Below the pieces are notes generated by a model. That model was not told the DNA's origin, made no database searches, and saw nothing but the letters and a program-made list of their open reading frames with translations. Positions 17,336 through 63,125 of a stretch of 64,000 nucleotides of DNA are shown here, piece by piece. Source of the DNA: Podarcis liolepis (taxonomy: Eukaryota); the NCBI GenBank assembly GCA_965112155.1, contig OZ218103.1, one strand, 5' to 3'. Both the position numbers and the translations under genes were made by a program. How positions within the stretch are numbered: the first letter of the stretch is position 1; each line of letters opens with the position of its first letter.

Positions 17336-30134
<12,799 letters not shown>

Positions 30135-44499: not shown

Positions 44500-45560
44500 T
44501 AAGGATTAATGGCGAGGCGGGTTCCCTCCACAATCCAGTGCGGGTTCAGGTTAAAGCTGAAGCGAGAGATGCCGCGCTTCTAAAATAGGGACGCCCTTTA
44601 ATACAAAGAGCTCATCCGGGAAATTTGAAAAGCGGTTGCGTCGAAGTGGAAATGGAGCAGTTGAGCGAAACTCCACCGGCCTTTAGTAAATACTGGGACA
44701 CCTCCCGCCCCACACGTTTCCACCATAAGCCCTGAGCCTCCGTGAGGCACTGTCGGCCCCGCCCCGCCCATCTTTCCCCCCCCTCCCCGTCCCACCTATT
44801 CTCTGGTTGCCACGGTGACAGTGGCCCGGCCTACTGGGCAATAGGAGCAGGCACTACTAAGCGAACAAGAAGCGTCAGGAAGGATCGCTCCTTGAGGCGG
44901 AGCCATCTCTCTGAGAAAGGGGGTAGGGCGCAAGGAACCGTCGATCACCAGAGAAGCGACGTGCAATTGGTGAGAATCCTGGTCACGTGCTAGATGGGCA
45001 GGACGTATATAAACTCGGGGTGTGTAGGAGCCTTCCGCCATTTTGTCCAGTGCGACGAAGTGGGAGAGGCGGCGGAATCGAGTCTTGGCGGGAAAACGGG
45101 CGACGCAGCGATCGAGCTCGGTGGCTGAGGGGCGAGAAGCGAGGGAGACTGCGGAGCCGACCGAAAATTAATAATCATAAAACCGTGTAGCGGTTACTCG
45201 CGAGAGTCGGTCACACTCCTGGCCCGGCAGCCGGTGAGGGAGGGGCTTGGTCGGGATGGAAGGCCTCGCGGTTGCGGCAGCGGACAAAGAGCCGCCGCCA
45301 TTTTGTGTGGTTGAAGTAACGTCAGGTCTCCCGCCGGGATGTTGGTCCCGGGGAGGAGATGAAAGGGGAGGCGGACTGCTTGAGCGTGAGGGGCGGCGTG
45401 GTGGGTATTATATTCGCAAGCTCGAGTCGAACCGACGGAGAATTGTGAGGCCGGAGGCCGCTACGATGGGCGGGAAACCTCTCAGTAGTAGGCGCGCCAG
45501 TTACCAAGCCGTAAGAAGCCCTTTTCGCCTCCTCGTGAGCGAGGAGCCTGAGGCCCAGCT
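44500..45560 (+). promoter_or_regulatory. CpG-island promoter and non-coding exon 1 of SRSF3
   Basis: TATATAAA 45006-45013, YY1 motif CCGCCATTTT at 45035-45044 and 45295-45304, E-box CACGTG 44984-44989, ATTGG 44966-44970, RFX-like GTTGCCACGGTGAC 44806-44819, GC boxes 44757-44769 and CHR-like TTTGAA 44624-44629. Exon 1 donor CCG|GTGAGG is at 45233. Confidence 0.8.
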
Positions 45561-45966
45561 CAAATCACCACAGGCTGCCTTGAAGGAGACCTGCTTTGGG
45601 GATCTAAACACAACACGCCCTTCCAAAACCAGTTGTCAGCCCCTGGATGCCCTGAAATGGGGGAAGGATCGACAACTTTCTTATATCGAGGTCTCCTTAA
45701 TTTTGACTTCGCTTTTGTGTTTCAAGGGCCTGGAGTATGGGTCTTCAATATAATATGATTAGTACCTTGGAACAATGAATTATATTTCTAAAGTAGATTA
45801 TAAGATGGACTTAAATGTATGAATAGTTATGCGTTGTAAGTCAAATCATCTGCACTGTATTTTCAAAATCATGAGCCTGTTTCAAATACCTTATAACCCA
45901 AAAGGTTCCCTAACTAATAAATATGAACAGAAGGCAAACCAGTTTTTCCTTGCATGTCTTCCAGAG

Positions 45967-48900
45967 ATGCATCGTGATTCGTGTCCACTGGACTGCAAGG
46001 TTTATGTAGGTAACCTTGGGAACAATGGCAACAAAACTGAATTGGAGCGAGCTTTTGGCTACTATGGACCACTACGTAGTGTGTGGGTTGCTAGGAATCC
46101 CCCTGGTTTTGCTTTTGTTGAATTTGAAGACCCACGTGATGCTGCTGATGCAGTCAGAGAACTAGATGGGAGGTAAAAATTCACTTACATTTGGGTTGAG
46201 CTTGTGTGTATACTCTGATCTATTAATGTAATATGCTGCTTTGATTGAAAAGAAAATTGGTCACAAATAGCCTGGCTTCTGTATTTGGAGATCCAAAAGA
46301 AATAGAACTGATTTTCTGTGGGGGCTAGTGGGGCTGGGAAGTAATTCTTACTAACAGTCTGTTAAATTTGTGTGAAATGTAATCTTTTGCTTGTGTTAGA
46401 AGAGTTTATTTTGAGTACAGTTAAAACATGTTGCATATTATTCCTGAGCTTCTAGATTTTGCACAGCTACCAAGTTTTGGAAACACTGGTTGTGAGCTCT
46501 TGTGATTCTGAGTGCCCTGTTTCAAACATGTAATTTTTTTTTAAATGGAAATATGCTTAACGTTGCAGGCTCTTAATGGCTCAGACTGTAGCTGAATTTC
46601 ACTCATGTTGATTTAAAAACATTTTTATTTTGACATCTATAATAGCTGAAGCTGAATATGCGTTCTATATGATCAAAACAATCTTAAGTGCTGGCTGCTT
46701 CTTAGGAGTGAAATACTGGTCCCCAGTCTAATTTTCAGTTAAACAAAACAAAATTAGACTGACTTGGTATGGTTTTGTGTTGAAGTTTAAATAACTAGGG
46801 AAATACAGGGGCACTAGTTGAAGTGTCTGGCTTAGTTTTATTAGGCTGTTAGAACTAACAACCCTTCCCTTTTTCTCTTAGAACACTTTGTGGGTGTCGT
46901 GTCAGGGTGGAACTCTCCAATGGTGAAAAACGTAGTCGGAACCGTGGTCCACCTCCCTCATGGGGTAGACGTCCTCGAGATGACTATCGCAGGAGAAGTC
47001 CTCCACCTCGCCGCAGGTATTTAGGAGCAAAGAACTTGTATAGTAATGTTTGGCAGTATTACCATTTGTCATAATAGACTTTTTAAAAAATATATATGCT
47101 TGTCTATACCTACCCAGACACAGAATTTTAAAGCATTGAATATGTGTTAGGGGATACATTGTGTTGAACACTGACTTTTATCCTTAGGTGTCTATACCAG
47201 TTGATAGTGCCCTCTAACATGGATTATCATCTTTCCTTCTGAAGTCTGTTCATCTTCTAGTCACTTTCTTTTTCTTCCCAGTACTCCAACTTGGGTTTTT
47301 TTTTGCTTTTCTTTACACCATTGTTGTAAACATTGCATACAACAGCTTGGCTTTTTCACCCACTTGAGATTTTTCCACTTTAGCACAATGATGCCAGGCA
47401 GGCAACTGTTTTTAAAATGGTGAAGCAATGAACAGTTGCTTAGCTAAATCTGAAAATAGTAAATCTGTTGAAATATGACCAACTTTTGAGTTATGCAGGA
47501 ATAAATTTCAAAATAAAGCAGGTTTTTACAAGTAATGCATTCTCTGACCCTGACAGATTGGTTGGGTGTTTATTAGTCGTACTTAAGGTCTTTATATCTG
47601 CAAGGGCTGATTTTAGCCTGTTTCAGGTAAATGAAGTCCATACAAGATAAGAGAGTGAAATCTGTTCCCTTTCACTGTAGAACACAATAGGAGTATTTGT
47701 TAGCTAATAGATGGTTGTACTGATGGCTTGTTTTTCATTTTTNNNNNNNNNNNNNNNNNNNNNNNNNNNNNNNNNNNNNNNNNNNNNNNNNNNNNNNNNN
47801 NNNNNNNNNNNNNNNNNNNNNNNNNNNNNNNNNNNNNNNNNNNNNNNNNNNNNNNNNNNNNNNNNNNNNNNNNNNNNNNNNNNNNNNNNNNNNNNNNNNN
47901 NNNNNNNNNNNNNNNNNNNNNNNNNNNNNNNNNNNNNNNNNNNNNNNNNNNNNNNNNNNNNNNNNNNNNNNNNNNNNNNNNNNNNNNNNNNNNNNNNNNN
48001 NNNNNNNNNNNNNNNNNNNNNNNNNNNNNNNNNNNNNNNNNNNNNNNNNNNNNNNNNNNNNNNNNNNNNNNNNNNNNNNNNNNNNNNNNNNNNNNNNNNN
48101 NNNNNNNNNNNNNNNNNNNNNNNNNNNNNNNNNNNNNNNNNNNNNNNNNNNNNNNNNNNNNNNNNNNNNNNNNNNNNNNNNNNNNNNNNNNNNNNNNNNN
48201 NNNNNNNNNNNNNNNNNNNNNNNNNNNNNNNNNNNNNNNNNNNNNNNNNNNNNNNNNNNNNNNNNNNNNNNNNNNNNNNNNNNNNNNNNNGAGTAAGCGG
48301 CTTATAAGTAATTACTTTTTCTCAATCAAAGGCTGGCTGTGCATAATTTCGTGGTAACATACATATGTTGCTTGAATAAAACTTTTAAGGGTGTTAAGGA
48401 AACTTAATATAAGAAACTAAACTGCAGTATATTTGCATGCGAGATGGCAAACTACATTTAATTGCTAACTTAGTTCTTCCTTGCAAAAATCTGCCAACTC
48501 CTTTCACCTTTAAACTGTTTTACTAACAGTTTTCGGAACAATTACTTTTGGGATAAACTGGGCAAACTAAGGTTCTTTAGACTAAACACACTATGACATT
48601 TTAATTTTTTACATTCACAAATATGCAGTTCTAATGGTGTTTAATGGCTTTGTCACGGTGTGCATTAGTCTTTCACTTGGTACCTTGTGTCCTGTTGCGG
48701 ACTTTTACCTTGCATGGGTTCCAAAATACTGGTTTATACCAATTTTGGGACTACTTGTGGGACATTAGTATAGTGTTCTAGGCAGTGGATTTAGTTGAGA
48801 TGGAAGTGCTGCATTGGACAGGTTTGCTTATGACATGGTGTTAGTTAAAGCAAACTCATGGTTGGAAGCGTGCTGATCACACTGAGTTTTTAATGCCTGA

Positions 48901-50294
48901 ATCTTTCCATTTTGCTGGACGATGAGTGCCATGTTATTTGGCACATTCACTGGGCCCAACAGTGACTTGACAAGTTGGGAATTGCCTCGCCCCACTGATG
49001 TTGAATTGATGAAAATACTCACTTTTCTATTTTTGATTGTAGATCTCCACGAAGGAGAAGCTTCTCTCGTAGCCGCAGCAGGTAAACTATTGGTGCAGCA
49101 TTTGGGTTGTCTAGATAATGGGTAGGCAAACTAAGACCCAGGGGCCGGATCTGGCCCAATCGCCTTCTAAATCCGGCCCACGGGCGGTCCGGGAATCCGC
49201 ATGTTATTACATGAGTAGAATGTGTCTTTTTATTTAAAATGCACCTCTGGGTTATTTGTGAGGCATAGGAATTCGTTCATTTTTTATTTCCCCCCCAAAA
49301 TATAGTCCACCCGTCTGCCCCCCAAAGTCTGAGGGAAAGTGGACTGGCCCCCTGGTGAAAACGTTTGCTGACCCCTGGCCTAGATAGTGCTTATAGAATA
49401 AGGGACTCCCCACCCCCTTAAACAGATGGCACTGTGGTGCAGATGGCACAGGTGTGACATTTCATAGCCCAAAGGATAGTTGAATTATACACTTGAAGTG
49501 CCATAAATCTCTGACTCCTTTGAAAGTGTACTTGGCCAGCACAGTTGTCAGTATGCTGTGTAAAATGCATGCCAAATGTGTTTATTAAAGTATAGTCTAA
49601 TCTGAATTCAGCTTTAAACAATTTAAAAGTTTTTTTCTGCCATCAAATGCTGTGATAATACCTTTCGTTTTGAATCCAGTATCAATGATGAATTACATAT
49701 TCTTCTAAAATGTGCCTCATAAATTAAGATTTTCAAGCATGTTTACAAGCACTGTACTAGTTAATGCATTGATACCATGTGTTGCTCAAATAGAAAGTAA
49801 AACCTGTGCACATACATTAGTATGTTATAGCCATTAATTTGCAACATATTTAAAAATATGAATTTAAGCTACAAGAAAAAGGTTATTCAAGGAGTGAGAT
49901 TTGAGTATGCTGTTTTTCAAGAATTGCATGAAAAATATATTCTCTTGAAATCCTGATTATTCCTTTTATAGGTCCCTTTCTAGAGATAGAAGGAGAGAGA
50001 GATCACTGTCAAGGGAGAGAAATCATAAGCCTTCCCGTTCATTTTCCAGATCTCGTAGGTAAGAACACTTCCATAACCTTAATGTCTGAATACAGAGTTT
50101 AATTCTGTAGCATATTTACTAGAGAAATGTCATTTTCACTAGTGCACTAATTAAAAGCCTTATAATAGGTCAATTTGTCTAGTTGAAATTTCAGGTGTAT
50201 GTTTAAATAATGATACTGAACTACTTCCATTGTTTGACTGAGAATCTCAATGTATATTCTCTCTAGCCGTTCCAGGTCAAATGACAGGAAATAG
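45967..50294 (+). CDS. SRSF3: Serine/arginine-rich splicing factor 3 (SRp20), 164 aa, 5 coding exons
   Basis: Exons 45967-46172, 46882-47016, 49043-49081, 49972-50058 and 50267-50294 total 495 nt, GT-AG, in phase. The product is the [86 protein letters not shown] followed by an RS domain ending SRSRSNDRK*. Confidence 0.98.
47743..48290 (+). other. SRSF3: 548-nt N run (gap or mask) at the expected site of the SRSF3 ultraconserved poison cassette exon
   Basis: Lies in the intron after the exon ending ...PPPRRR. Left flank GATGGTTGTACTGATGGCTTGTTTTTCATTTTT and right flank GAGTAAGCGGCTTA match, from memory, the ends of the conserved element around the human SRSF3 NMD exon. The content itself is unreadable. 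Confidence 0.75.
49117..49377. mobile_element. hAT (Charlie-like) non-autonomous DNA transposon in an SRSF3 intron
   Basis: Same family as 10983-11227. TSD GTCTAGAT/GCCTAGAT (49109-49116, 49378-49385) fits the NTCTAGAN target preference of Charlie elements. Confidence 0.85.
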
Positions 50295-50601
50295 AACTTC
50301 AGGAACAGCAGTGTACAGGAAGTCATATTAGATCTGAAGAAAGGAGTATGTGAAAGGAGTATGTACAGAACATTGTTTTCTTTTAAGACTTCATAAGCTT
50401 GGTGCATTTTTAAAATGTTTTAGCTGTCAAATTTTGTTTTTCTTGTCTCTTGTAACAGGTGACAAATGTAACAGTTGTGAATCTGTATATGGTTCTGAGC
50501 AGGTCATATGAAGTGTAATAACTTGTTGCTTTACAATGTACCCTTAAGCATAACTTTGATTTGTATTAATGTTTAGCTAATAACCTTGCATAGACTTACC
50601 A

Positions 50602-50607
50602 AATAAA
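50602..50607 (+). terminator. Proximal poly(A) signal of SRSF3 (candidate distal signals ATTAAA 51103-51108 and AATAAA 52717-52722)
   Basis: AATAAA about 310 nt after the stop codon, preceded by 8 TGTA motifs. Confidence 0.55.
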
Positions 50608-52820
50608 ACCTCAAAAGCCATGCAAGTGGCAAATGTTCTTCATATAAATATTGTGTTCTGGAATCTGCAGGATCTAAACTTGAAAGGAAGTACACAACAC
50701 ACATGACCTTTTAATCCTGAGCATTTGCTACAATCACAAATGGGCAATCTATGCAAGGTGAGAGCAGGATTAATGGACAGGATAAAACCAATAGTAAGCA
50801 AAGGGGTTATGAAAGCCTTGTAGGAGCTATATGTTTTTGATACTGTTTTACAAGTTCTGATTTATACCAGTTTAGTCAGAACTACCTTCTACCATGTAAA
50901 AGTGTAGATTAAGTTTTGTATCTTTGTGTGGATCAGTACTTACTGCTGAAATGTGAACTGCCTAATCTGTTCATTATAGAGCAGACCAAAAGAACAGATG
51001 ATTAGCTAAAAGGATTTGGGTGCATAAGGGTACATTGTAGATGCGAAATTTTCTTATTGTGCATAAGTTGTCATGTCACTGTAAACTCTTTGAGATCTTT
51101 GGATTAAAATTTTGGTTACAAATCGTTCTAAGTATTTAACTTTCGTATTTTGACATACTTTCGTTCAAATATAACATTCAGATGGACTTGTGTACAGTTT
51201 AATTCAAATCTGTTATTGTGAACAATTTGAAGCCATAATCAAATTTCACTGTGTTAATGTTTGGATAAAGAGCTATTCAGAGAACGTTCATATGTAAGTA
51301 ACAGACCACACATAGTTCCTTTTAAAATACCTCTTCAAATACCTAGAGGCAATTGCCTCAGTCATCATCTATGGTAATACATGGTTATTTACTACAACAC
51401 ATTCACAACAAGTTACAATAATGATTGGCTTAGCATGCTGCACTCCAATGAGCATTCATTTTAGTAATGAAGCACTCAAACTTGTATACCAAAAGTGAAC
51501 TTGCTATGCAGGGATTCAAGTTAAGCATAAAAATTAAGCTTTGTAATGCCGACAAAGCTTTAAATGCTCTGCATTAAAACAAATGTTGCATGCAACGTTT
51601 ATCCATTGGTCTTGTGCCCAGAAAATAATTGGTCTTGTGAATTTTAGATTAAATCCATACTACTTGAAAACATTTGGTTTAATTTCATTATCTAGCCTTT
51701 TAAGGAAAATTACATGGTCATCCAAAGATTGTTAATGTTTAATATTCTATCTTAAACGGCTTCAAAAAGGGGAAATGCATGCTTCATTAAAGACTTGTCT
51801 TGCAGAGTTCCATTGTGCCTTGTCAACCTATGTGGATAAAGCATTTGTAAAAAAACAAAAAACTCACAGCAGAATGAGCTGTTGAAGTAGGTGTCTTTTT
51901 GGGGAGACAGGCTTGGAGGGGGCAATTGCGAACTAAACCCTATGAAAACAACACTCAAGACTCCACATGAGTCACTTTTATGTACTACCTTGAACCTTTG
52001 CACATGGGTCATATCACATGTAACCCAGGTATCAGAAGCCTTGCTGAAAAATGTGAAGGAGGGGATATAGTTAAAGCATGTCAAATTGCAGAGTTAGAAG
52101 TGCCTGCACTATGCCATGTAGTAAACATCCAGCTCAGTAGTTTTAGTGTGTAAGCTCCCTGTACCATAGAGGTTCTGAAACCTGTGTGAGGAGCAAGAGG
52201 GACTGCAGAGTATCAGCCCAAAAGAGTTGCACATTAAATTCTCCTGGTAAATTTATTGGTTAAAAGCCTCTGGTGGCTTCCTGATCCCCTTTTTATTCTT
52301 TGTGCAATACAAATGTTTCCTTTGCCTGGCAAGCTTGCATCTGGGTCTGGTGATGCTCATCTGTGCAGGTACCTATGATGGATGTGAATTGTGCATTCCC
52401 ACTCCCACTGTGTCCAAAATACTGGTGTAAGCATACAAAGGGGGAAGAAGTCACATTCTCAAATTGGTATTGAAATTTAAGGGAGTTTGGGGTATAACGA
52501 GAGGTGCACATGTACTCTTCAATGCAGCTGTCAACATCTCATTGTCAAGGCAATTTAAGTCCACAGAGAAGTGCATCGTTCTTCACAAAATGGCAATAGT
52601 ATACAAACAGCTTATTCTACTTTTAGAAGAAATTGTACCATCAAGTGATGTTTGCCTTCTCTTGCCCTAGGCACATGGGAGCAGTTGGTTTCTTTGGATA
52701 TGCATCATAAAGTTGTAATAAACTAAAATTGCTATTGTGGGCTCCTACTGAGTAGCTAAGAGATACTCTCTGGCTGAAAAATGGTTACTTGACAGCCTAC
52801 AGCAGTAATGTTTGCTAGTA

Positions 52821-53171
52821 CAGTGGTGCCTCGCAAGACGAAATTAATTCGTTCCGCGAGTTTTGTCGTCTTGCGATTTTTTTCGTCTTGCGAAGCACGG
52901 TGTCGGGAAAGTTTTGGAAAAGCTTCAAAAATCACCAAAGTCTTTAAAAACCTCAAAAAAGGCTACCACACCGCGTTCTATGAGTTGCTCCTCGAAGTCA
53001 AGTCGCAACTGTATTAACGGTGTTAAGAAAAAGGAAACTTGCAAGACGTTTCCGTCTTGTGAAGCAAGCCCATAGGGAAAATCGTCTTGCGAAGCAGCTC
53101 AAAAAACAAAAAACCCTTTCGTCTAGCGAGTTTTTTGTCTTGCGAGGCATTCGTCTTGCGAGGTACCACTG
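52821..53171. mobile_element. Tc1/mariner (Tigger/pogo-like) MITE, 351 bp
   Basis: TIRs CAGTGGTGCCTCGCAAGACGAA/TTCGTCTTGCGAGGTACCACTG, TA TSD, and repeated subterminal TCGTCTTGCGA motifs. Confidence 0.9.
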
Positions 53172-56100
53172 TAGAACATGCAAAGTAATTGTAGTGACAA
53201 GCCTTTGTGCTATATAGCTGTAGGTATGCCCTGACGCTATAACCCAAAGAATGTTGCCACAGAAGAATTCCTGAAGTGGTAACCTATCCATACCTTTCTG
53301 GCTTTCCTTACTCTTACATATGTGGAGGAGACAACGATGTTAACTTCATAACCATGTGATTTATTACAAGCAGTGTGCTTAAAACAACCCATTATAAAAA
53401 GCTCTCAACTGGTGATTAGGTACATAGGCTGGAACCTTAAATCTCCTTTTAGGTGTAACGTGAGGTGGAATATATTTAATGGGATTAAATTTTTTGAAAA
53501 AATAATACTGTGAGTAGGAAGCTAATGACATGGCTTTTTAGGTTATTATATAAAAACCTTAGCTGTGATTGCAAAGTAATGTATGCATATTTTAACAATT
53601 GACAGACGTGTAGGCACAACTTGAATATTGCTGTCTGAAGTTCTAGCTTCAGGTTGGTTATTGAATTCATCCACAAATGCACTAAAACCTTTAATCAGTA
53701 AGGGGACCAATTTCTGGTCATCTTGACAGAATGCAGGCATAATCTGCATAATTAGGTTGCCTGTTTCTCTTGACATTGGTCAAACTACATTTTCTTTGTA
53801 GATAGCTTTCCAGAACAGTTAATTGTTTTTGTTAGAAGGAACAAGGTAGTAAAGTTTAAATGGCAAAATCTGAGAAGTTCACTAATTCAGAGAAATGTCC
53901 TTGGTGTGTGAATATGGAGGGTGTGTGTGTGGATTTGGGGAGGATATGTGGTTGCAGGTAAGAGTCATAGTACACAAGTAGGAACTGATAAGCTGTCTGG
54001 ACACTCACCAGAGCTTCCAGTGCTGTTTTTCTTGGTTCCCTTCATGCTTGAATAATCATTGATTCAGTACAATCAAGAGCAAGAAGACCATAAACCATGT
54101 GACTGGATGAATATTGACTGAACGAACGACCATCTGCACTTTACTTCATCTGTACTGCACTTTACAACGCCGAAACCTCCAATGGAGGTTGAGATTCTGG
54201 TGGCAAACATTCCAAATGGTCACAGAACAAAGTGTCAACAATATCACAGTTTTTGTGAGAATGGGATTAAAATGTCATCCTGGGGGAAGGAAGAATCAGG
54301 GCTAGAAAGCTGACTGGGAAGGAGATACTAGTGGGTTGCAAATCTTTGAAGATAAGAAATCCTAGAGGGCAGTGTAAGTAGATTCAGGAATTTGTGTGAA
54401 GGGCAGATAGATGGGCCTTGAGAAAAAGGCTTTTGAGTTTCCAAGACTAGTCCCTAAGAAGTTCCTGGACCTTGCATGGAACAATTCTGCTTCCTCTGGC
54501 TTCTACGATAAACTGCAGTGGGGTTACATTCTTTTATATGCTACATGCTAATTGAAACTAGTCAATTAATTCTTTGTGGTTTTCTAGTATCAATAAATCA
54601 GTACCATAACACTAAGATATTTAATTAGATCAGCTTCTGTTGGGTATGCGTGTACACACTTTGAATACCATACTCTAATCAGATTGCCAGGAAAGACACA
54701 TCATAAGCACACGTGAACTACCTGCTATATTAAAATCTCTTAAATAAAAGCATGACTTAGTGTATTTGCTTTCAGTGTTAATATTTTGGTAATATAAAGA
54801 TACAGTATAAGCTTGTTTATAGTTGGGTGGGATACACTTGGCATTGGATATGGGAAACCTATGTAAGTGTCCCTTGCCTTCTGCCAAGAAGAATCCCAAG
54901 AAATTTAGGAGTTGCTTGCATGTGCTTGTGGTTTGAATATGAAAAAACAGGCATTTCTTCTGGCTTATCCATGTCTCCAGCACTAGTGAAACAAGATAAC
55001 AACTCCTTTTCCTCTAGAATAGATACTTTGTAGGAATCAAGGAAAAATTGAGATTTGGCTAGCAAGCCAAAGTGATAATTTGTGGAACCCAGTCAGCTCA
55101 TATGTAGGGGTGGAGTGGCACAGTGGATTTTACCGACAGCGTGAAAAGCTGTCTCCTGTTACAAACAGGAGGTTACTTTTTCCATGCTGAATTCAGTCTG
55201 CAGTGGACAGTTGTTAGCAGGATACTTCTATTTTTTTAACTAGCTGTGTTTTAGTGCTGAATAGAGAAGGAATACTCCCAAGATTGAATGAATGGATTTA
55301 TTATGGTCACAGACCAGAAATCTCCCAAGATTAAGCCCCTTGTGACAAGAAAAAATGATTCATCTATATCAGAGGTGAGTCAAATATGTTGAGAAACCTC
55401 TTTTAAGGCCATCTAGTGATGTCCTTTAAGAATTTTTATCTCCTTACCCAGGCACTGCTGGAGGCACTAGGCAAATGAAATTGCATGGCTGCCTAGTTAC
55501 TGCAACTTTGCTGTTGGGACTAAACTCTTCTTCTAATGCAATATAATATAGTAGCTGCCACCATCTTAGATACTGTAAAAGACCATTGTTAGGAGTAGTT
55601 GGTGGAGGCATCCAGTTGCAATGCTAACAGCTGCTAGTTTTCACTAACCTCAAATATTAACGCGTTCTTCATAATTTTGACAAAAGAACTCTATGGTGGT
55701 GTTGCTACTCTAAAATCAGTTGGACTTAAACACTTCCCGCACATATTCTAGCAAGGTAATGGTCATATTTGTGAGTGCAAAAGAAAGTGCTTGGCATTCT
55801 GAACTGGAGCACCTGGCTGTCACTGGAAATGGGAGAAGCCGTCTGAGGAGCATCACAGGTGCCTGGACCAAATTGGAAGTGATACTCCACCCACATCTTC
55901 ACAGCTCCCTGTTGAGTTATTTAAGAAATGTATATCTTGATTTTCACTTATTTCAAAGCAGCTAGGAGCGCTCCTAGCAGCATGAAAACTGCAGTCGCTG
56001 ACTTAAAAAGACAAAATCTTGGTGAGCACCTTGTTTCATTTAAATAGGTATATGGGATATGGATAGTGGTAGTTTTTTGTTTAATTTACTACGATTAAAA

Positions 56101-61869: not shown

Positions 61870-63125
61870 GGGACGCGGGTAACACCGTGGTCTAAACCAC
61901 TGAGCATCTTGAGCTTGCTGATCGGAAGGTTGGCGGTTCGAATCCATGTGATGGAATGAGCTCCCGTTGCTCTGTCCCAGCTTCTGCCAACCTAGCAGTT
62001 TGAAAGCACACCAGTGCAAGTACAGTGGTGCCTTGCAAGAATAATTAATTCGTTCCGCAAGTCTCTTCGTCTTGCGGTTTTTTTGTCTTGCGATGCACGG
62101 TTTCCCATAGGAATGCATTGAAAATCAATTAATGCGTTCCTAGGGAAACCGCCTTCAGACCAGGTCCGGGGACAGACTGTCCCCGGACCTCTTCTGAAGG
62201 CTGGGGGGGGGGGACAAGGGCTTTTCTTCCCACCCCCAGCATTTTAAAAAACCCCGGGACAGCGGAGGACTTCTCCGCTGTCCGGGCGATCTTAAAATGC
62301 TGGCGGGCGGCATTTTAAAATCGCCCCGGGACAGCGGAGGACTTCTCCGCTGTCCGGGGTGATTTAAAAGCCCCTGGGAAGTCAGGCAGGGGGGACAAAG
62401 ACTTTTGCCCCCCGCCAGCCTTCAGAAGAGGTCCTGGACCTCTTCTGAAGGCGGGCGGGGGGCGAAAGTCTTTGCTCCCCCCTGCCTGCCTTCAAAAGAC
62501 CTCCGGGACAGGCAGGCAGGGGGGAGCAAAGACTTTCGCCCCCCGCCTGCCTTCAGAAGGTGTTCCCTCCCCCCCGCCCAGCTTCGGAGCACCGGGAGAA
62601 GCGATCTCCCCGCAGCCCCTTGCTTCAAAAGAGGTCGGGGGCAGCGGGGAAGAAGCGCTGCGCTTCCCGCTGCCCCCGGACCTCTTTTGAAGCAAGGGGC
62701 GGTGGGGAGAAGCGATCTCCCCGCAGCCCCTTGCTTCAAAAGAGGTCCGGGGCAGCGGGGAAGAAGCGCTGCGCTTCCCGCTGTCCGCGGACCTGGGGCT
62801 GCGGGGAGAAGATCGCTTCTCCCCGCCGCCCCTTGCTTCAAAAGAGAAGACCCGCTGTCCCCGGGGCAAGCTTCGTTTTGCGAAGCAAGCCCATAGGGAA
62901 ATTCGTCTTGCGAGGCAACTCGAAAACAAAAAAACCTTTCGTTTTGCGAGTTTTTCGTCTCGCGAGGCGTTCGTCTTGCGGGGTACCACTGTAGATAAAT
63001 AGGTACTGCTGTGGTGGGAAAGTAAAGGGCGGCTCCCTTGGCCTGAAGCAAGATGAGCACCGTACCACATGCCATGGTCACCTCTGGCAGGACTTAATCA
63101 TCCAGGGGTCCATTACCTTACCTTT
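61870..63125 (+). mobile_element. Sauria SINE interrupted by a DNA transposon
   Basis: Head GGGACGCGGG...GGTTCGAATCC at 61870, resumes at 62992 (TAGATAAATAGGTAC) and ends ACCTTACCTTT. TSD is GCTATGGTAGCA/GCTATGGTAGTA (61858-61869, 63126-63137). Confidence 0.85.
62023..62991. mobile_element. Tc1/mariner (Tigger/pogo-like) non-autonomous element, 969 bp, with a GC-rich repeat interior
   Basis: TIRs CAGTGGTGCCTTGCAAGA/TCTTGCGGGGTACCACTG and TA TSD (62021-62022, 62992-62993). Same termini as 52821-53171. Confidence 0.9.

What the first reader, a model, noticed from the sequence alone, without database searches (positions are those of the whole stretch)
47710..48304. The N run hides the SRSF3 ultraconserved poison exon (autoregulatory AS-NMD switch)
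Seen: 548 Ns begin inside a T-rich polypyrimidine tract in the intron between coding exons 2 and 3, and all coding exons are accounted for outside the gap. Established: SR-protein genes carry ultraconserved stop-containing cassette exons, and SRSF3 promotes inclusion of its own roughly 450-nt exon 4 to trigger NMD. From memory, both visible flanks (GATGGTTGTACTGATGGCTTGTTTTTCATTTTT and GAGTAAGCGGCTTA) match the ends of the human element (uc.189 as I recall), and the gap size fits exon plus splice flanks. Inference: the element is present and conserved in this lizard but unsequenced or masked.
Basis: partly seen in the sequence, partly recalled or inferred. Interest (0 to 1): 0.75.

Follow-up and report, generated by a model that had tools for sequence, protein, structure and literature searches.

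The report
Hidden stretch over SRSF3 poison exon
A blanked-out 548-base stretch lies in the third intron of an intact SRSF3 splicing-factor gene, where mammals and birds carry a well-known self-limiting 'poison' exon, so it likely covers that ordinary, long-known exon, although its letters were not seen.

Summary
The N run is real (47743-48290, 548 nt, the window's only one) but is not itself a biological feature. The host gene is SRSF3: intact 495-nt/164-aa frame, all coding exons outside the run, first 68 residues identical to human SRSF3. Reads show a non-coding exon 1, so the run lies in the intron that holds exon 4 in mammals. Published coordinates give uc.189 as 573 nt and the poison exon as 456 nt, starting 81 nt inside it; such an exon fits wholly under the run. 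The left flank looks like a branch point plus pyrimidine tract with no AG, so an acceptor is expected under the N. Both flanks are single-copy. The paralog SRSF7 in the same genome shows a visible 448-nt stop-containing candidate exon with human-like spacing. Not shown: the hidden letters, any junction into them, or the recalled match of the flanks to human sequence. Both flanks cannot be the ends of uc.189 without 22 extra bases (595 versus 573 nt). Verdict: very likely the known SRSF3 autoregulatory poison exon, already reported at over 97% identity in birds and 92% in coelacanth. Ordinary; low interest.

The parts
45041..45233 (+). SRSF3 exon 1 (non-coding; 5' end approximate)
   Evidence: Read depth begins in the bin 45041-45087; GT-AG joint to exon 2 in 29 and 36 reads of 2 runs
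45965..46172 (+). SRSF3 exon 2 (208 nt; ATG at 45967; RRM N-terminal part)
   Evidence: aa 1-68 identical to human SRSF3, PDB 9asq_H; read-supported borders
46882..47016 (+). SRSF3 exon 3 (135 nt), upstream partner of the predicted cassette exon
   Evidence: loose ends behind exon 2 read its first bases in 29 and 35 reads
47710..47742 (+). Visible left flank: branch-point-like CTGAT (A at 47723) and pyrimidine tract, no AG after 47710
   Evidence: the only such site in this intron on the + strand under a filter drawn after seeing it
47743..48290 (.). N run, 548 nt; letters not seen
47791..48246 (+). Predicted place of the 456-nt poison exon 4 if 47710 is the first base of uc.189 and there are no indels (start could lie 47745-47835); inferred, not seen
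   Evidence: Human coordinates; arithmetic
48291..48304 (+). Visible right flank; probably intron just beyond uc.189; holds a weak donor-like GA|GTAAGC (GT at 48293)
49043..49081 (+). SRSF3 exon 5 (39 nt)
   Evidence: AG/GT borders, frame kept
49972..50058 (+). SRSF3 exon 6 (87 nt)
50267..50607 (+). SRSF3 exon 7: stop at 50292-50294, 3' UTR to the proximal AATAAA at 50602 (next ATTAAA at 51103)
   Evidence: two such signals reported for human and mouse

Best explanation
The N run lies in intron 3 of an intact, expressed SRSF3 gene and likely covers the orthologue of the 456-nt ultraconserved poison exon 4 (uc.189), which would send exon-including transcripts to nonsense-mediated decay and so let SRSF3 limit its own level. 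Shown here: the gene, its exon order, the position and size of the run, and a branch-point-like tract whose AG is not visible. [quoted passage not shown] The N itself is a property of the copy, not of the organism.
For: Gene: 495-nt frame, 164 aa, four GT-AG introns, equal to the human ORF and protein length; aa 1-68 identical to human SRSF3; 2 matches at E<=1e-8 in the genome, this one and SRSF7. Numbering: exon 1 and 2 read-supported; six visible exons plus one gives the seven of the human gene, with exon 4 between 3 and 5. Size: uc.189 573 nt, exon 456 nt, 81 nt inside its start and 36 nt inside its end; it fits wholly under the run. Left flank: 1 such site in this intron, 11 in both strands of the window; human branch points are spread through this conserved upstream region. 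Flanks single-copy, 1 match each. [quoted passage not shown] NMD logic: a random 456-nt intron-like exon stays open in 1 of 20,000 trials, and any stop lies at least 126 nt above the last junction. Paralog SRSF7 (L001) has a visible 448-nt candidate exon with an early stop, in an 859-nt intron spaced 180/231 nt, versus human 448-449, 876 and 183/244.
Against: The letters under the run were not seen, and no junction into or out of it was examined. Flank identity to human or bird DNA was not tested (searches found no printed sequence). The 595-nt span exceeds uc.189 by 22 nt. The branch-point filter was drawn after seeing the site. The predicted acceptor would lie 68 nt from the candidate branch A, longer than usual. 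The SRSF7 candidate borders were picked by eye and have no read support here. Exons over 407 nt can escape NMD by one published rule, though the human exon responds to UPF1 knockdown and cycloheximide.
Confidence: 0.9

Rival explanations
1. The run covers unrelated or decayed intron sequence (an ordinary assembly gap or an inserted element), and this lineage has lost or moved the poison exon.
For: An N carries no information on its letters; a gap and a blanked stretch cannot be told apart in the window. Turnover of poison exons is documented in the SRSF4/5/6 family.
Against: Flanks are single-copy with no direct repeat of 14 nt or more within either flank; the run has the size and place of the element; the exon is kept in birds and coelacanth; the pyrimidine tract has no visible acceptor.
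Confidence: 0.05
2. The conserved element is present but is used differently here: a longer exon ending at the visible GA|GTAAGC (about 502 nt), or mainly retention of the flanking introns as a nuclear non-coding transcript like mouse T-uc.189.
For: The GT at 48293 ranks 3rd of 92 GTs in the visible intron on a rough donor matrix, with one base unknown. An intron-retaining 3451-nt T-uc.189 RNA is reported in mouse.
Against: Its score (1.3) is below all 4 real donors (2.6-5.9). Exon length is 456 nt in human and mouse. Retention coexists with exon inclusion in mammals rather than replacing it.
Confidence: 0.05

Closest known systems
SRSF3 (SRp20) poison exon 4 / ultraconserved element uc.189
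   Same: Same gene, same intron (between exons 3 and 5), size of the hidden stretch fits the 456-nt exon plus flanks, branch-point-like upstream tract.
   Different: No difference shown. The visible span is 22 nt longer than uc.189; the hidden letters, inclusion and decay were not observed in this species.
SRSF7 (9G8) poison cassette exon
   Same: Closest paralog; stop-containing exon of about 450 nt in the intron after exon 3, phase 2; visible as a candidate in this genome (L001:3137-3584).
   Different: A different gene on another contig; shorter intron (859 versus 2026 nt). Sequence likeness between the two exons could not be compared.
SR-protein AS-NMD autoregulation in general (TRA2B, SRSF5, SRSF6 poison exons)
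   Same: Same logic of negative feedback by a stop-containing cassette exon in conserved sequence.
   Different: Different genes and introns; SRSF5 and SRSF6 events arose at different intron positions.

Membership tests
SRSF3 gene | Single RRM identical or near to SRSF3, not SRSF7 | tested here: met
   68/68 identical to 9asq_H, 153 bits versus 102 for SRSF7
SRSF3 gene | 495-nt ORF, 164 aa, EKRSRNR at 84-90, RS tail, no zinc knuckle | tested here: met
   Translation against the description
SRSF3 gene | Transcribed and spliced, non-coding exon 1 | tested here: met
   2 of 2 runs, one study, about 12% of each read; fixed differences at 4 exonic places in both, so a close relative or another population
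SRSF3 poison exon 4 / uc.189 | Lies between exons 3 and 5, room for 456 nt plus splice sites | tested here: met
SRSF3 poison exon 4 / uc.189 | Very high sequence identity to the mammalian element | not testable with these tools
   Letters read N; no vertebrate DNA collection; flank strings not in print; the published alignment figure is a picture
SRSF3 poison exon 4 / uc.189 | 3' splice-site elements upstream of the exon | tested here: inconclusive
   Branch-like CTGAT and pyrimidine tract visible; the AG is not
SRSF3 poison exon 4 / uc.189 | In-frame stop more than 50-55 nt above the last junction | tested here: inconclusive
   Distance at least 126 nt; the stop itself unseen, near-certain for any exon of this length
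SRSF3 poison exon 4 / uc.189 | Alternative inclusion in mRNA | not tested
   No reads were examined at the exon 3 donor or exon 5 acceptor
SRSF3 poison exon 4 / uc.189 | Decay by NMD and inclusion driven by SRSF3 itself | not testable with these tools
   Shown in human and mouse cells; needs knockdown or overexpression here

The most novel reading that the evidence does not exclude
If the animal is an ectothermic reptile, its SRSF3 poison exon works as a temperature-read switch, with CLK-dependent inclusion retuned to a much wider body-temperature range than in mammals, despite near-identical exon sequence. This would test whether the exon's ultraconservation is tied to endothermy. A review states that most SR poison exons are temperature-sensitive in mammals; nothing in this window bears on it.
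Probability: 0.2. Interest if true: 0.4.

Novelty: already known. Interest (0 to 1): 0.08.

Why it matters
Little as a discovery: the exon is one of the best-studied poison exons and is already reported from mammals to coelacanth, so its presence in another vertebrate is expected. The informative outcome would be the opposite one (loss or change), which the evidence makes unlikely. For the scan, it is a case where an N run drew attention to a conserved element without adding information about it. I saw no paper on a squamate SRSF3 poison exon among the 15 listed of 1,254 or the 15 listed of 17; these searches are too shallow to claim absence.

Tried and rejected
Text search for the visible flanks: 0 papers, 0 hits in one supplement set; the published exon 4 alignment is a picture and names no reptile in its text. 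Rfam: no family near the run; 1 hit in the window, a tRNA-like one far away. Transposon ends or repeats at the run: none seen. ORFs listed across the run are artefacts of N codons. Lareau and Brenner 2015 was read for SRSF3/SRSF7 ancestry but covers SRSF4/5/6 only. No RNA holder was listed for the SRSF7 stretch, and no read evidence on its candidate exon was obtained, so its splicing is open. Earlier findings of the scan: none. The strong donor-like site at 47627 has no good acceptor upstream (best pyrimidine share 0.7 of 13 candidates) and was not taken as the poison exon's end. No structure or complex prediction was run: the protein is identical to solved SRSF3 over the part tested.

Full report
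Observation. The window has one N run, 47743-48290, 548 nt. It follows TACTGATGG and a T-rich tract and precedes GAGTAAGCGGCTTA. An N here may be a blanked stretch or an assembly gap and says nothing about its letters, so everything about the content below is inference from context.

Host gene. Five coding exons (45967-46172, 46882-47016, 49043-49081, 49972-50058, 50267-50294) join through four GT-AG, phase-2 introns into 495 nt and 164 aa, the ORF and protein length given for human SRSF3. Residues 1-68 are identical to human SRSF3 and score 153 bits against 102 for SRSF7; full-length identity was not tested. The genome gives 2 matches at E<=1e-8 among 25 candidates scored: this locus and one at 79%, which is SRSF7 (58/58 to 2hvz_A). 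An STK38-family kinase gene lies upstream on the minus strand (STK38 versus STK38L not resolved), and the best of 3 CDK-inhibitor-family matches lies about 36 kb downstream. The human order STK38-SRSF3-CDKN1A is recalled, not from a call.

Exon numbering. Two RNA runs of one study (about 12% of each read; 152 and 175 reads laid) show a GT-AG joint from 45233 to 45965 in 29 and 36 reads, and exon 2 running on into exon 3 in 29 and 35 reads. Both runs differ from the window at 4 exonic places, so they come from a close relative or another population. Thus there is a non-coding exon 1, and the run lies after exon 3. Six visible exons plus one gives the seven of the human gene, whose exon 4 lies between 3 and 5.

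Size and place. A UCR catalogue lists uc.189 at 6:36599740-36600312 in SRSF3, 573 nt. Two papers give the poison exon as chr6:36599821-36600276, 456 nt, 81 nt inside the start and 36 nt inside the end. If 47710 is the first base of uc.189 and there are no indels, the exon is 47791-48246 and the element ends at 48282, all under the N. More loosely, a 456-nt exon fits under the run with any start from 47745 to 47835. The finding's span is 595 nt, so the two flanks are both ends of uc.189 only with 22 extra bases; the right flank is more likely intron just outside. A random 548-nt block would fall in this intron 2.3% of the time.

Flanks. The left flank has a branch-like CTGAT (A at 47723), 14 pyrimidines in 16, and no AG after 47710. 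It is the only such site in this intron and one of 11 on both strands of the window, under a filter drawn after seeing it. Human branch points for this exon are spread over the conserved upstream region, so a 68-nt distance is not excluded. The right flank holds a weak donor-like site, below all four real donors. Each flank matches only itself in the genome. The recalled match to human DNA could not be tested: no paper text held the strings, and supplements I could not see (one scanned file, one too large, the alignment picture, the sequence picture) may hold the sequence.

Paralog. SRSF7 in this genome (L001, no N) has, in the intron after exon 3, an AG/GT-bounded 448-nt candidate exon with a stop starting at its 26th base, 420 nt above its donor; intron 859 nt, spacing 180 and 231 nt. 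Human values are 448-449, 876, 183 and 244 (from coordinates). Borders were picked by eye; there is no read test. It shows that this species keeps the layout in the sister gene, not that the SRSF3 exon is there.

Mechanism. Shown: gene, intron, room, upstream tract. Inferred from mammals: SRSF3 promotes inclusion of exon 4; the exon has an in-frame stop near its 5' end; included transcripts rise on UPF1 knockdown or cycloheximide; PTBP1/2 and SRSF1 oppose inclusion. Here, any exon of that length would almost surely carry a stop (open in 1 of 20,000 random trials) at least 126 nt above the last junction. [quoted passage not shown] Loss in this lineage is therefore unlikely: 0.90 for the orthologous exon, 0.05 for unrelated content, 0.05 for changed use.

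Papers. Passages only were seen for PMC8329457, PMC10321290 (supplement search 43), PMC12660711 (supplement list 15 and search 17), PMC5959240, PMC12809107, bioRxiv 2025.10.01.679902 (26), PMC4586487, PMC11346455, PMC13228269 and PMC4379411. Others were seen only as search listings. Jumaa and Nielsen, Lareau 2007 and Ni 2007 were seen only as cited in these.

Verdict. Already known. Interest 0.08.

Noticed in passing
window 17339-27509 (-): Exons of an STK38/NDR-family kinase gene; the CpG-rich block near 32-34 kb may be its promoter, divergent from SRSF3.
   Followed up: partly
L001:3137-3584 (G000:C3): Visible 448-nt candidate poison exon of SRSF7 with an early stop and human-like spacing.
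   Followed up: partly
window 47627: CAG|GTAAAT, the top donor-like site of 92 GTs in the visible intron and stronger than 3 of the 4 real donors, about 80 nt upstream of the left flank, with no good acceptor upstream. Possibly a decoy or cryptic site; unexplained.
   Followed up: partly
window 35402-35474 (-): Rfam tRNA hit, 44.3 bits, not called by ARAGORN; likely a tRNA-derived repeat head or pseudogene.
   Followed up: partly
window 52819-53173 and 62021-62993: Two related MITE-like elements with the same terminal inverted repeats (24 and 20 nt); the second holds many GC-rich internal palindromes.
   Followed up: partly
window 45294 and L001:1589: GCCGCCATTTT near the 5' end of both SRSF3 and SRSF7; resembles a YY1 site (recalled).
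   Followed up: no
window 45234-45930: Low sense-strand read cover over intron 1, mainly in one run, falling from about 8 to 2: nascent or retained intron.
   Followed up: no
window 50339-50364: 13-nt tandem duplication in the SRSF3 3' UTR.
   Followed up: no
G000:C6:46586589-46586735 (+): CDK-inhibitor (PF02234) match about 36 kb past SRSF3, probably CDKN1A.
   Followed up: partly
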